A stretch of DNA of 64,000 nt from Octopus vulgaris. Taxonomy: Eukaryota. The position numbers were made by a program. Location of the stretch: NCBI GenBank assembly GCA_951406725.2, contig OX597818.1:126852001-126916000 (forward strand), read 5' to 3'. Of this stretch, positions 3,001-18,000 are shown in pieces; positions within the stretch are counted from its first letter, which is position 1; every line of letters starts with the position of its first letter.

Positions 3001-6000
3001 GATGTGCAATAGAACAGTGATCGGCAGTGTGACGAAGAAAGAACAACTGAACGTAACGCAGAGAATTACCTGCGGCATAATGTAGCAAACAGCGTTTGAT
3101 GAAAAATATACGTAATAACAATACAGTATGACGTAAAATATACGAGATGAGGTGACGTAGAATCAGGAACAGCACGTTAATACGTATGAAAAATGATAGA
3201 ACATAACGTACAAAAGAACAATCTTGGTGTGACGTAATGATCCACGGTGTTTGACGAAGAATAAAACTGTACCAAACGTATAGTAAAAAACAACACACCC
3301 TAACGAATTAAACAGTCACACCGTGACGTATAACACACAGCACGGCACAGTGTGACAACAGACGAACACTGTGATTTCTTGACGGACAGTACGACTATGA
3401 GTGTAGCGCTGATGACAGAGAAAATTTCGAATACCTACATTGCATCTACGTCTAGTTGGCCATGGCCAACCACTCTGCTCATGGCGAGAAGAGCTTTTAA
3501 TTCGGCTATCCTCTGGTCGGAGGATGTCCGTTTAACGCTGAAGTAAAATCAGAAATTTCATTTAAGAATGACTCCAAAGAAATACACACTGACGAACCTC
3601 GCAGAAACAGACTCACTCCCTCTCACACACACACACACACACACACACACACACACACACACACAAACGCACACGCACATGCACACACATACACGCAATC
3701 ACAGATACACACGCATGTGTATGTATATACATATATACAATATATTTAATATTAAACCTATATAACAATACATATGTAATATGTGTTATTACATATTATA
3801 TATATATATGTATACACACGCACACACATATGCACAAATTTACATCCATTCACGCTCATACACAGGAACACGCATACATACATACATACACACACAAAAC
3901 ACACACACACACACACACACACATATATATACAGGGTGCAGTGAATAAATTGTCTAAATTACGAAAAAATGAAAGTAACACTGACATCTCATTTTAATAG
4001 ATATATTTACCAAAATTACATAGACTTTCTTGACATACTAAAGAATAGATTATTTAACAAAATCGCCATTGGCTTCAACCATGACCCCCAGACAACTTCG
4101 GAATCTCCTGCAACTCTCCTGCACGATCACCTTTTTTAAGTTGGTGAATGCTGCCATGATCCTTCCCTTTAGTTCATCTTTGGTGTTACAAGGAGTTTTG
4201 TTGGACTCTCGGTCAAATGCACCCCACACGTAATAATCAAGAGGGTTGTAGTCTGGGAAGTTATGTGGCCAGATGTTTGGGGTGATGGGGTCGCAGTAAT
4301 TGTCCTGCTTATATGGCATGGTGTAGTATCATGTTGCCAGACATATGGTCTCCTAGATGTCACCCTCTTCACCCAGGGCAGCACTACCTCCTCCAGGCAC
4401 TTAATGTAGGCCTTTCGTGTTGAGTCTGAGGCCGCGTGGGATGATGAATGGAGGCGTAAGCTCGCCGTCACTAGCGATCACTCCAAACACCATGATGTTG
4501 ACTAGATGTTTGATTTTTATCACTCTCAGTACATGTCCTCAGATTGACACCCAAACACTCTGAAATGTTCATATTGGAGCTTCTGGTGCAAATACCAAGC
4601 AGTACATCATGTCGTTTCAAAATTTCAGAGAGTGTGAATTGCGTCATAGTGCTTTTTTTCCCACAGTCGGTGCCCAAAGGATCCTACTATACTGTGTAGT
4701 CGATATGTGAATGCTCGAAATTAAAACTATACAGTAGCGATAATTTACTCATCGTACCCTCTGTGTGTGTATATACACACACAATACACGCACGCACACA
4801 CGCGCACACACACACACACACACACACAAACACACACACACATACACACACACACACACGCACATATGCACAAATACTATCCCCTCACACAAACCAATAT
4901 ACCATATAAATTTATGCTGAAATAATTGAAAGTATGATATTAACATGTTATAAACAATTGCAATAAATCAAATCATTATATTTTGACAGGCATATAATAC
5001 AACAATACAGAAGAATGAATATTTTCAAAAACAATGGTTTTGGTGTCATCATTTTACCACAATTTTTATAATCGAATTTGGTTTTCATGTTAATGATTCT
5101 TCTTTCACCTAACAAGAAAATATAGAGAAGTAGGGCAATAAAACAATATAATATCTGGCTCATATTTAAGTACAGTATATTAGTGGTATCTCAGTGCGTA
5201 TCTTAGTGCGGTAGTTCGTTCATTCGTTTGTTTGTTCGACGCAACATCTTTATTCTGCTGTGTGATGTAGAAAACAATACAATGATAGGAATATGATTAG
5301 GTCACAGAAATTGAATATACGAGTTAATTAGATGAGATTTAAACAAAGAGAAGAAACAGAAAACATTTGGGAAATATCATTTCGGAGTGGCTAGAAGCAG
5401 CAATATAGTAAACAGGAACCAGTTCGTATTATATACATCACTGTAAGCATGTAAAGCGCTCCCTGTCCACACAGACAAATAAACAAAAATGCCCCAAACA
5501 TACACTTCAAGTACATGCATGTAAATGGGTAAGCATATGTATATGTATATACATACACACTCACACACACATACACACATCCACACACACATTCAATATA
5601 TCGTTGTAGCTGTGATTGTGTTAGCCCATACCATAACAGTGTCGGAAGTGCAGTGAGATTAACTCAACTTCAGGAGATTTAACAGCACAAAGCAAACGAC
5701 TTAATAAGGTCTATTTTTTAATGGCTAATATTTTTCATGGTAAATCACCTACGCATAAGATGATGTAATTAAATATTTTATAAACAAACTTTATTTTAAC
5801 TTTCATTATACATAATACATACATGTATGTATGTATGTATGTATGTATGTATGTATGTATGTATGTATATATATATATATATATATATATATATATATAT
5901 ATATATATATATATATATATATATATATATACATATATATACATATATATATATATATATATATATAAAAAAAAAAAAACACACACACACACACATATAC

Positions 6001-15000: not shown

Positions 15001-18000
15001 TGTCTGTCTTATCTTTAACATCCCTATAAAATTGTTCATGCATTCTTTTCTTTACCAATCTATTTTCAGTTTCAATCGTTTTCAATTGATTGTACAATGC
15101 TTTATCTTTGCAATCTTTCATCCTACACAAGGCTGACCTTCTTACTTCTCATAATAGCGTTTCTGTGGCATTTTTTTACATACCATTCTATGTTGTTTTC
15201 TTCTGTTGTAATGCTGTGTTCGCATCCAATAAGTCCTCTTCCCTCTTTTTCTTGGTACATACAGTCTGCCTGTGTCACTTTTTGGGTAGAGTGTCCCATA
15301 TCTAGTTAGCAACTTCCTTGTCTTTCTGTCTAAGCTGCTTAGTTCGTCTGCTGTCCATGCGATCACCCATGCTCCATATCTAAGGAGTGAAACTGCCCAT
15401 GTGTTGACAGCTTCAATCTTATTCTGTCCATTTAATTTCAACTTAAGGATCAGTCTCAGTCTGCGCAAGTACTCCACTTGAAATTTTTCTGTAGTTTCTT
15501 TCTCCATCAATTCATCCATTTCCAAAATTCCCAAATACTTATAGCCCGTCTCTTCTATCTGCTCCATAACCTCCCCCGACGGTATCGATAGCCCGTCCAT
15601 ACATTTGATTTTGCCTCTTCTTCAAGACTAACACACCACACTTTCTCAGTCCGAACTCCATTCTGACATCAGCACTGAAAATATACATCGTATCAACGAG
15701 GGAATTGACTTGGGTTTCATCTTTATCATAAAGTTTGAGATCATCTATGAATAACGAATGGTTGCCTTTTTGTTGGCGGCTTTTGAATACATACCCAGCT
15801 TTTGCTTTCCTCAGCATCAGTGTTAGTGGTATCAAGCACAGTACAAAGATCAGTGAGAACGGGCAGCCCTCCTGGAAGATGCCCCTCCTGATTTCTACTG
15901 TCCCTAAACTTCTTCCGTATGCTCTTAGGGCCGTCCTCCAATTCGCCATACTTTTTCCAAGCAATCGCTCAAAATTCCATTATCCAAGTGATCTTATCGT
16001 ACGCCTTACGATAGTCGGTCCATGACATGGCTAAGTTACTTTTCCTCCTCTTGAAGTCTCTAAGTACATTATTATTATTATTATTATTATTATTATTATT
16101 ATTATTATTATTATTATTATTATTATTATTATTACTTTTTTTTTCTTCTTTCAAATTTGCTTCCATTTCTTGCCGAGTGTCTTCCCGACTCCTAGGGCAA
16201 AGAAACTCATAGTATACATTGGTAGGCCATTAAACCAAACTCAATAGTCGTTCATTTTTTGAAATTTTTGTTTTTTAAGTTATATTAAAATACATGAAAC
16301 TTTTTATTATTATTATTATTATTATTATTATTTTTTTTTTTTATTTTTTTTTTTTTAATAATTATTATTATTATTATCATTATTATTATTATTGTTCAGT
16401 AGTTTTATTTTTATAGCGTGCTTTCACTTCACTACCGAGCGCAGCTCTGTGTGCCTTGGGTATGTGCTGTGATTTGTTGTGATTATTATTATTATTATTA
16501 TTATTTTCTGTATGTTATATTATTATTATTATTATTATTATTATTGTTTCTGTTTTCATTATTATTATTATTATTATTATTATTAGTAGTAGTAGTAGTA
16601 GTAGTTATTATTATTATTATTATTATTATTATTATTATTATTATTATTATTATTATTATTATTATTATTATTATTATTATTATTATTATTAGTAGTAGTA
16701 GTAGTAGTAGTAGTAGTAGTAGTAGTAGTAGTAGTATTGTTATTTTATATTAGTTTTGTCTATATTATATTTTACGAATCTTGGAAACAAGTGGCGCTTA
16801 GCGTTTAATAATTATTAACTGCTAAGCACCACTTGATTCCCCGAATCCGAGTTTTCTCTATATATTGTGCGTAAGAGATGTGATTAATTTCAACAAGCTA
16901 TCGCGTTAATTAAAACAAAGTTAAATGTATCATGTGTCGGAATTTTAAAATGATCTACACGTTTCTATATAACAACAACTTGCAATAATTTTTATGAAAG
17001 CAATTTCTTAGTTATGACGTTATTAAAAATATTGCAATGTAAAAATTGCTTACCTCAATTCTTCCTCTGGGATATATCGTGCATTTACAAGAGAAACTAG
17101 CACCATGCCAACAATGCTAAGTATTAAAATGTGTCGTGTCATCTGAAATCAAATGAGAGAAGACATAAATGATGTGAAATGGATATGAAATTCCAGCACG
17201 CAATTATGTGATTATTAACAAACATGAAAAACATTAAACCGAGCAAAAAGTAATTTCTTAATATGCACCGTTCTTCTTTCCAAGGATTCTATTCACGTTA
17301 CCTGTATTTAACCCTGGAAGAAATTCCGGTAAATATTCGATATATTTCAGCCATCAAAATGAAACCAGCGGATACCTTATCACAATAATCAGTGTTGACA
17401 TATAGCAAGTAGAAATTACTTAATTCTCTTTACATTAGATTTGGCCTCAGAGAAATGCCTCTGTCAAATGGAAACATAATCTGAAATCACTTGCCTATTC
17501 TCAAGAACAATTCCCCAAACGAGTTACTTATTGCTTTTTTCTGTTACCTGGATTAACATTTTTGTTTGGATATCAACAGAACATGGGCTCTTTGATTCAG
17601 CAAAAGTACTAAAGTCTACTGAGGTCAACAATGTAGAAGTCGTTATTGTTGTTTAGTCCCAGAAGATCCGTGATTGAACTGGCCTACGATCAAAGGCATT
17701 CTAGCAGCGATATAGAGTTGCTACATCTAGTAAACCTGTCGAGCACGTAGACGTTCCGTTTGTTGGCTCAAATTATACATGAGTCGGAGCAATGGAAGAA
17801 TATTGTTGAACGATGCAAAAGCACTAAAATACTGACGGATTTATCTTTGATCTTACACATTCTAGATATTGTCATATGAAACTGGCAGGAGACAGGGTCA
17901 TCTTAGGCAGAACAAATAAGTGTAACATTCGTTCGAATGATTATAACCACGTATCAACGTACGCTTGAAGTCACACGTGAAGTTTCCGTAAATATTTGTA

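What the first reader, a model, noticed from the sequence alone, without database searches (positions are those of the whole stretch)
3439..17142. Hidden neuropeptide gene with an array of interchangeable peptide-cassette exons (candidate mutually exclusive splicing)
Seen in sequence: one signal-peptide exon ending in phase 2 (AG|gtaagc), then three paralogous exons of 114, 120 and 99 bp. All have canonical splice sites, are phase 2-2, start x-K-R and encode one peptide sharing D-x-[RK]-x-A-E-[YL]-x-A-x-[LM]-A-[LM] ... V-[AG]-[CH]-G-x-[VL]-D-[IV]. Established knowledge, recalled rather than searched: peptide C resembles cuttlefish PXXXamide and insect PTH-like peptides, ligands of PTH-receptor-type class B GPCRs that end in Gly plus basic residues. 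Inference: no cassette has its own Gly-basic signal and all end mid-codon at the same aligned position. One shared signal exon and one shared terminal exon could therefore pick one of three hormones, a repertoire built by exon duplication. The cassette donors gtatag and gtacag are weaker than the signal-exon donor, which fits regulated choice.
Basis: partly seen in the sequence, partly recalled or inferred. Interest (0 to 1): 0.93.

Follow-up and report, generated by a model that had tools for sequence, protein, structure and literature searches.

The report
Octopus QSamide/PXXXamide neuropeptide gene, cassette exons
This is a real octopus neuropeptide gene of a known mollusc family (relatives of the insect parathyroid-hormone-like peptide) in which three related peptide exons appear to be combined in different ways between one signal exon and one tail exon, as already described for the oyster version of the gene.

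Summary
On the minus strand there is one signal-peptide exon (17142-17054) and three paralogous phase 2-2 exons: A 9976-9863, B 8900-8781, C 3537-3439.

The gene is not hidden. Its exons match RefSeq and ENA "uncharacterized" Octopus proteins letter for letter. It belongs to the mollusc QSamide/PXXXamide (insect iPTH-type) precursor family. A and B are QS-type cassettes with a C-x4-C loop. C is the PXXX/iPTH-type cassette.

Database proteins continue with S-GKKKR after A or B and with I-GKKKR after C, then share one tail. That exon lies outside the window.

Strict three-way mutual exclusion is not supported. The signal-bearing cephalopod proteins carry A, B, C-type, A+C or B+C. None of the 7 carries A and B together.

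The best reading is combinatorial cassette use, in which only the last cassette is amidated. Differential splicing of this kind was published for the oyster QSamide3/PXXXamide gene in 2021 (PMC8398477). This is therefore a new member of a known kind. No transcript data were available here.

The parts
17054..17142 (-). Exon E1: start codon, signal peptide (n-region MTRH, hydrophobic core, VNA before the likely cut) and a short acidic spacer. It ends AG|gtaagc, phase 2.
   Evidence: The 9-residue hydropathy windows peak at 2.9. The 29 residues are found exactly in P0021, P0022, P0024 and P0025. No SignalP was available.
9863..9976 (-). Cassette A, 114 bp, phase 2-2. It is QS-type: an FKR cleavage site, then a peptide with a C-x4-C loop and an N-I-T sequon. 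Weak donor AG|gtatag, with a GTAAGC hexamer 5 nt further on.
   Evidence: Exact in O. sinensis XP_029636461.1 (P0024) and XP_036355813.1 (P0025). Aligns with QS-type cassettes of other molluscs.
8781..8900 (-). Cassette B, 120 bp, phase 2-2. It is a canonical QS-type peptide (SKR site, then Q-T-G-D-I-K...C-x4-C-G-V-V-D). Weak donor AG|gtacag.
   Evidence: Exact in O. bimaculoides XP_014776777.1 (P0021) and O. vulgaris CAI9723499.1 (P0022). 17 hits at E<=1e-3.
3439..3537 (-). Cassette C, 99 bp, phase 2-2. It is the PXXXamide/iPTH type (VKR site, then T-S-S-D-Q-R-I-A-E-L...G-H-G). Donor AT|gtaggt. Read-through would give M then stop.
   Evidence: Exact in P0024 and 31 of 32 in P0021. Aligns with the PX cassettes that share S-D-Q-R.
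9977..17053 (-). Intron 1, 7077 nt. It holds reverse-transcriptase-like ORF fragments (14378-15979) and microsatellites.
8901..9862 (-). Intron 2 between A and B, 962 nt. It holds a (GT)52 tract at 9528-9632 on the + strand.
3538..8780 (-). Intron 3 between B and C, 5243 nt, rich in (TA)n and (CA)n tracts.
1..3438 (-). Start of intron 4. The shared terminal exon (pyrimidine + Gly + KKKR + tail) is not in this stretch and must lie beyond the window's first base.
   Evidence: tblastn of the tails of P0003 and P0021-P0023 found nothing at E<1 and E<5. No AG+[A/C/T]+GGN+two basic codons, and no AATAAA or ATTAAA before position 1320.

Best explanation
The locus is the Octopus gene for the mollusc QSamide/PXXXamide prepropeptide, which the literature takes as the orthologue of insect iPTH.

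One signal exon is followed by three homologous, symmetrical cassettes (phase 2-2, lengths divisible by 3). Each cassette opens with its own x-K-R cleavage site. A terminal exon outside the window begins with a pyrimidine, then Gly and KKKR, then a conserved tail.

Any subset of cassettes stays in frame, so splicing can build several precursors. The cassette joined to the terminal exon has its split codon completed (AG|Y gives Ser, AT|Y gives Ile). It then receives the Gly that becomes the C-terminal amide. Cassettes further upstream are cut out as non-amidated peptides with short C-terminal extensions.

Shown here: the exon anatomy, the family, the junction residues, and the existence of A, B, A+C and B+C forms in Octopus protein records and of B and C-type forms in another cephalopod.

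Inferred: that these forms are splice variants of one pre-mRNA in one animal; that A and B are alternatives to each other while C is optional; amidation; and action on PTH-receptor-type class B GPCRs.
For: Anatomy and paralogy.

Family:
- Exon B finds 17 proteins at E<=1e-3. All 8 of the 8 hits that carried a source name, among the 10 looked up, are molluscs.
- P0024 matches oyster proteins at E from 1.1e-21 to 8.6e-17. Their sequences hold the PYKI and PALI ends that the oyster paper names.

Exact matches of window exons:
- P0024: E1, A and C
- P0025: E1 and A
- P0022: E1 and B
- P0021: E1 and B, with C at 31 of 32

Junctions:
- 4 of 4 window-internal junction residues are as predicted.
- S-GKKKR after A or B and I-GKKKR after C are both explained by one first base, T or C.
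- Across the proteins fetched, I read by eye that 7 of 7 QS-type ends before G-basic are Ser, and that 13 of 14 PX-type ends are Ile and 1 is Val.

Other cephalopod forms: P0023 and P0029 are on contigs of 1223 and 1041 nt. Their signals and tails differ by one residue each, and their middles are B-type and C-type.

C is not the last exon: no poly(A) hexamer lies within 2.1 kb after it.

Literature: the oyster QSamide3/PXXXamide gene gives transcripts for either or both peptide types by differential splicing, with mature peptides seen by mass spectrometry (PMC8398477, passages).
Against: - I had no RNA reads. Every isoform is a database gene model or an assembled contig of unknown support.
- The models come from three Octopus species, one extra 48 kb scaffold, Argonauta and unnamed records. 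None is shown to coexist with another in one animal.
- Only 3 models (P0024, P0025, P0022) come from genomes known to hold both A and B, so 'A or B' rests on little.
- One O. vulgaris model (P0001) has A-, B- and C-like cassettes in series. A>B would also give a good KRSKR site.
- The terminal exon is not in the window.
- Pfam has no model for the family: 0 families for P0024 and P0021.
Confidence: 0.72

Rival explanations
1. Strict mutually exclusive splicing. Every transcript holds exactly one of A, B and C between the signal and terminal exons.
For: Single-cassette proteins exist for each type: P0025 (A), P0022 and P0023 (B), P0029 (C-type). The exons are homologous, in the same phase and of similar size.
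Against: 3 of the 7 signal-bearing cephalopod proteins hold two cassettes: P0024 A+C, P0021 B+C, P0003 B+C. No usual enforcing feature is present. All introns are GT-AG, the A-B intron is 962 nt so there is no steric block, and the exon lengths are multiples of 3 so double inclusion stays in frame. The only complementary intron pairs of 13 nt or more listed (the 40 longest were printed) were microsatellites or AT/CA-rich low-complexity runs, apart from one local 18-nt pair within intron 3.
Confidence: 0.08
2. An ordinary polyprotein. A, B and C are all constitutive and are read in series. The shorter database proteins are incomplete gene models.
For: All junctions stay in frame and give dibasic sites. 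P0001 (O. vulgaris) has A'-B'-C' in series. Gastropod models P0002 and P0016 hold three cassettes in series.
Against: P0001 has no signal peptide. Its first and last pieces map to window intron sequence (10873-10823 and 1859-1770), which is typical of an ab initio model. None of the 7 signal-bearing cephalopod proteins has A with B. Two contigs of about 1 kb (P0023, P0029) hold whole precursors with one cassette each. In the oyster the forms were reported as separate transcripts.
Confidence: 0.1
3. C is the last coding exon. The donor at 3439 is not used, and the frame ends with Met and a stop, giving non-amidated peptides.
For: ATG TAG directly spans the proposed donor.
Against: P0024 is identical to the window through C and continues I-GKKKR plus the tail. 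There is no AATAAA or ATTAAA for 2.1 kb downstream. The donor GTAGGT matches the consensus as well as E1's donor does. Intron retention as a minor product is not excluded.
Confidence: 0.05

Closest known systems
Crassostrea gigas QSamide3/PXXXamide gene (Realis-Doyelle et al. 2021, PMC8398477; passages of section 2.5.6 and figure legends read)
   Same: It is the same protein family: P0024 against oyster proteins gives E from 1.1e-21 to 8.6e-17. It has one signal, several homologous QS-type and PXXX-type peptide units, and one Gly-basic end plus tail. Differential splicing gives transcripts with one or two units. Internal units are named '-like', which I take to mean not amidated.
   Different: The oyster has one QS-like and two PXXX-type units (P0028, P0031). 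This Octopus locus has two QS-type units and one PXXX-type unit. The Octopus C peptide has Val, not Pro, at -4. I could not see the oyster exon map, because the figure is not held and supplements are closed.
Insect iPTH (Tribolium; Xie et al. 2020, PMC7224569; abstract and passages read) and Sepia officinalis PXXXamide (Zatylny-Gaudin et al. 2016; not held)
   Same: Both have a signal peptide, a KR site, a conserved S-D near the peptide's N-terminus, a Gly-basic amidation signal and a C-terminal extension. These are the features the paper lists, and cassette C plus the tail has them.
   Different: The passages I read describe one mature peptide in Tribolium and mention no splice variants ('splic' and 'isoform' occur 0 times in the main text). 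I did not align an insect sequence here. The link to iPTH rests on the papers. Receptor activation in molluscs is stated there to be unproven.
Vertebrate calcitonin/CGRP gene and Manduca allatotropin gene with optional allatotropin-like exons (recalled, not searched)
   Same: One signal exon, with alternative or optional peptide-coding exons that change which hormone is made.
   Different: They are unrelated families. Calcitonin/CGRP uses alternative 3' ends, each with its own processing signals. Here the amidation signal sits on one shared last exon.

Membership tests
QSamide/PXXXamide (iPTH-type) precursor | Significant sequence similarity to named members | tested here: met
   P0024, which is exact for window E1, A and C, hits Magallana gigas A0A8W8NK86 at 8.6e-17 and a Crassostrea angulata / C. 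gigas LOC105323263 protein at 3.3e-21. These hold the PYKI and PALI ends named in PMC8398477.
QSamide/PXXXamide (iPTH-type) precursor | N-terminal signal peptide followed by a dibasic KR site before the peptide | tested here: met
   E1 has a basic n-region, a hydrophobic core and V-N-A (no SignalP run). Each cassette starts x-K-R.
QSamide/PXXXamide (iPTH-type) precursor | Conserved S-D near the N-terminus of the PXXX/iPTH peptide | tested here: met
   C reads T-S-S-D-Q-R. All PX cassettes extracted share [SA]-D-Q-R. The feature is stated in PMC7224569.
QSamide/PXXXamide (iPTH-type) precursor | C-terminal Gly plus basic residues (amidation signal), called strictly conserved | tested here: met
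   It is not in the window DNA. It is present as I-GKKKR or S-GKKKR in the proteins that match the window's exons exactly: P0024, P0025, P0022 and P0021.
QSamide/PXXXamide (iPTH-type) precursor | Pro at -4 of the amidated end (the name-giving residue) | tested here: not met
   The Octopus end is D-V-D-A-I, with Val at -4. Argonauta has Phe there. PMC7224569 calls this Pro only mildly conserved.
QSamide/PXXXamide (iPTH-type) precursor | Q-S amide end of the QS-type peptide | tested here: not met
   After A the end is E-K-S, and after B it is H-A-S (P0025, P0022). Ser is kept, but Gln is not.
QSamide/PXXXamide (iPTH-type) precursor | Peptide activates a PTH-receptor-type class B GPCR | not testable with these tools
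   It is shown only for Tribolium and is stated to be unproven in lophotrochozoans.
Mutually exclusive exon cluster | Tandem homologous exons of the same phase and similar length | tested here: met
   114, 120 and 99 bp, all phase 2-2, with A-B E=1e-7.
Mutually exclusive exon cluster | Exactly one exon of the cluster in each mature mRNA | tested here: not met
   A+C in P0024; B+C in P0021 and P0003. For the pair A/B alone, 0 of 7 signal-bearing proteins hold both. That is suggestive only.
Mutually exclusive exon cluster | An enforcing mechanism (steric block, U2/U12 mismatch, frame shift on double inclusion, or docking and selector RNA pairing) | tested here: inconclusive
   The first three are absent by inspection. 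The pairing search listed only microsatellite or low-complexity complementarity plus one local 18-nt pair within intron 3. No second genome was available to test conservation.

The most novel reading that the evidence does not exclude
A and B are truly alternative to each other and C is optional. One Octopus gene would then make at least five precursors. The position of a cassette next to the shared 'amidation exon' would decide which of three ligands is made in its active amidated form. That would be a splice-coded switch between QS-type and PTH-like signalling. A neighbouring duplicated locus (P0001) with faster-changing peptide exons would extend it.
Probability: 0.35. Interest if true: 0.55.

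Novelty: new member of a known kind. Interest (0 to 1): 0.36.

Why it matters
It names a set of 'uncharacterized' Octopus loci as the cephalopod QSamide/PXXXamide (PTH-like) hormone gene.

It also shows that the oyster's cassette arrangement is shared with cephalopods, so it is probably old within molluscs.

The split codon gives a simple rule that can be tested by mass spectrometry. The last residue and the amide of each hormone come from the junction with one shared exon. This explains why the two peptide 'families' end in Ser-amide and Ile-amide.

It gives concrete peptides for receptor tests in an animal used in neurobiology.

Tried and rejected
Stops on both sides prevent a longer unbroken stretch, so E1 was never searched on its own. 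It was checked only as an exact substring of hits. Exon C (37 open codons at most) could not be sent to that tool either.
- I looked for the terminal exon in the window with tblastn of the hits' tails and with a pattern for AG+[A/C/T]+Gly+two basic codons. Neither found anything.
- I looked for docking and selector RNA pairing. One search was swamped by (TA)n. One search, with a low-complexity filter, printed the 40 longest pairs of 13 nt or more. All were microsatellite-like or low-complexity except one local 18-nt pair (7519-7502 with 7465-7448).
- Aligning 150 nt of flank around A, B and C showed similarity only in the bases next to the splice sites. Intron homology is therefore gone.
- Pfam found 0 families for P0024 and P0021.
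- The ESM Atlas feature search on P0024 gave nearest clusters that are assorted neuropeptide precursors at 0.88-0.91. That range is also reached by chance, so it is a lead only.
- TACGTCA looked frequent by eye after exon C. The window holds 11 copies against 9.28 expected, so it is not enriched overall, though 6 of the 11 lie in 2124-3330.
- The Sepia neuropeptidome paper is not held.
- Literature searches for a cephalopod description found none in the held library.
- I built or searched no joined model of the window's exons. The bacterial genome collection and the phage, plasmid and E. coli sets were not used, because they are irrelevant to an animal gene.
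Full report
**What is in the sequence.** The gene lies on the minus strand.
- E1 (17142-17054, 89 bp) starts at an ATG that directly follows a tttcag acceptor. 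It encodes a typical signal peptide and ends AG|gtaagc in phase 2.
- Three further exons follow: A 9976-9863 (114 bp), B 8900-8781 (120 bp) and C 3537-3439 (99 bp).
- All three have AG acceptors and GT donors and are phase 2-2. They begin FKR, SKR and VKR.
- They are paralogous beyond chance: A-B E=1e-7, A-C 2e-3, B-C about 2e-2. No fourth copy exists in the 64 kb.
- The introns are 7077, 962 and 5243 nt.
- The donors of A and B (gtatag, gtacag) lack +4A, +5G and +6T. By simple consensus count they are weaker than those of E1 and C.
The one omission is that reading through C's donor gives Met and then a stop.

**What it is.** Exon B alone, searched against 1.84 billion representative proteins, found 17 proteins at E<=1e-3, the best at 2.2e-22.
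- I looked up 10 of these 17. The 8 that carried a source name are all molluscs: Octopus, Argonauta, Haliotis, Lottia, Elysia, Batillaria and Bradybaena.
- The hits have a signal peptide, then one to three units of two homologous kinds, then Gly plus basic residues, then a conserved tail.
- The QS kind reads Q-S-A-D-V-K-x-A-E-Y...C-x4-C-G-V-V-D. The PX kind reads S-S-D-Q-R-I-A-E-L...A-H-G-Q-F-D-P-x-x-I.
- Oyster members carry the PYKI and PALI ends. These are the peptide names used for the Crassostrea gigas QSamide3/PXXXamide gene (PMC8398477, passages).
- The literature equates PXXXamide and QSGamide with insect iPTH, the ligand of the insect PTH-type receptor (PMC7224569 and PMC8557429, passages).
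- Window cassettes A and B are QS-type, and C is PX-type.
- Pfam has no model for the family.

**The gene is already modelled.** I searched exon by exon. I left out the step of joining the window's exons into a model and searching with it. The hits tile the window's exons letter for letter (accessions):

| Protein | Record | Window exons matched |
|---|---|---|
| P0024 | O. sinensis XP_029636461.1 | E1, A and C exact, plus tail |
| P0025 | O. sinensis XP_036355813.1, on a 48 kb scaffold | E1 and A exact, plus tail |
| P0022 | O. vulgaris CAI9723499.1 | E1 and B exact, plus tail |
| P0021 | O. bimaculoides XP_014776777.1 | E1 and B exact, C 31 of 32, plus tail |

All are named 'uncharacterized' or 'hypothetical'. 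The window is thus most likely from O. sinensis or a very close relative.

**Test of the exon boundaries.**
- The window's split codons predict R at E1>A, R at E1>B, S at A>C and S at B>C. All four are found in those proteins.
- After A or B the proteins read S-GKKKR. After C they read I-GKKKR.
- AG+N gives Ser only for T or C, and AT+N gives Ile for A, C or T. One shared first base, a pyrimidine, therefore explains both.
- Across all the proteins fetched, I read by eye that 7 of 7 QS-type ends before Gly-basic are Ser. Of the PX-type ends, 13 of 14 are Ile and one (Pecten) is Val.
It also explains why the two peptide 'families' end in Ser-amide and Ile-amide.
- That exon is not in the window. 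Neither tblastn nor a pattern scan found it.
- There is no poly(A) hexamer for 2.1 kb after C, which argues against C being the last exon.

**Which combinations occur.** Seven cephalopod proteins carry the signal peptide:
- A only: P0025.
- B only: P0022 and P0023.
- C-type only: P0029.
- A+C: P0024.
- B+C: P0021 and Argonauta P0003.

P0023 and P0029 are unnamed records on contigs of 1223 and 1041 nt. Their signals and tails differ by one residue each, and their middles differ.

None of the 7 has A with B. The only protein with A-, B- and C-like units in series is O. vulgaris CAI9723493.1 (P0001). It lacks a signal peptide, and its first and last pieces map to window intron sequence (10873-10823 and 1859-1770). 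I therefore read it as an ab initio model of a nearby paralogous locus.

Strict one-of-three choice is contradicted, and so is a fixed polyprotein. The best fit is combinatorial cassette use. A and B may be alternatives to each other, but only three models come from genomes known to hold both.

**How it most likely works.** Every cassette is symmetrical and opens with its own cleavage site, so any subset is in frame.
- The cassette spliced to the terminal exon gains its last residue, the Gly and the KKKR site. It should therefore be amidated.
- Earlier cassettes would be released without an amide and with a short extension. The oyster paper's '-like' peptides appear to be of this sort.
- The regulation is unknown. 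The weak A and B donors fit regulated use.
- No feature that enforces exclusion was found.
- Amidation, disulfide formation in A and B, and receptor choice are inferences.

**Comparison and novelty.** The closest known case is the oyster gene, where differential splicing of one pre-mRNA gives QS-type, PXXX-type or mixed precursors.
- The differences here are two QS-type units and one PX unit instead of one and two, Val instead of Pro at -4, and ends E-K-S and H-A-S instead of Q-S.
- Eight literature searches found no account of the cephalopod gene's structure in the held library.
- The Sepia paper that first named PXXXamide is not held.
- I file this as a new member of a known kind, of moderate interest.

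**Limits.** I saw no transcript reads, no second cephalopod genome and no signal-peptide predictor. The isoform evidence is from database proteins of unknown support.

Noticed in passing
window 10823-10873 (-) and 1770-1859 (-), compared with protein P0001: O. vulgaris CAI9723493.1 (P0001) is six accession numbers from CAI9723499.1 (P0022) and sits on the same 147.5 Mb record. It looks like a neighbouring duplicate of this locus. Its cassettes are 88 of 104 residues identical to the window's. Its two non-cassette pieces, which map to window intron sequence, are 45 of 47 identical (Fisher p=0.059). This hints at faster change in the peptide exons of the copy.
   Followed up: partly
window 1770-1866 (-): An open frame behind a good acceptor (ttttag|A) would join in phase to C's donor, giving I-A-P-C-K-R and then about 24 more residues before a stop. 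The O. vulgaris paralogue model uses it as its last exon. It has no Gly-basic signal, and the nearest poly(A) hexamer is about 450 nt further on. It may be an alternative end or an annotation artefact.
   Followed up: partly
window 9853-9863 (-): Five bases after cassette A's weak donor lies GTAAGC, the same hexamer as E1's strong donor. Using it would add 5 nt and shift the frame. The database proteins use the weak site. It may act as a decoy or regulatory site.
   Followed up: no
window 1-1420, ORF 534-947 (-): A very AT-rich block holds a 137-codon open frame with a weak GIY-YIG nuclease match (E=0.0036, 18 bits, below the 22.6-bit cut-off). It is probably a mobile-element remnant inside intron 4.
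   Followed up: partly
window 14378-15979 (-) and 49372-49839 (+): These open frames resemble retrotransposon proteins; one holds an F-I-D-D motif (resemblance recalled). Pfam gave no hit at E<=0.01. The first set lies inside intron 1.
   Followed up: partly
window 9528-9632, 8514-8588, 7602-7730, 6282-6555, 5807-5967: Long (GT)n and (TA)n tracts flank cassette B in introns 2 and 3. Some are complementary to each other across B: 9634-9613 pairs with 6633-6612. Whether such pairing loops out B is untested.
   Followed up: no
window 2124-3330 (-): Six of the window's 11 TACGTCA sites lie in the 1.2 kb after cassette C. The window-wide count is not above chance, at 11 against 9.28 expected.
   Followed up: partly
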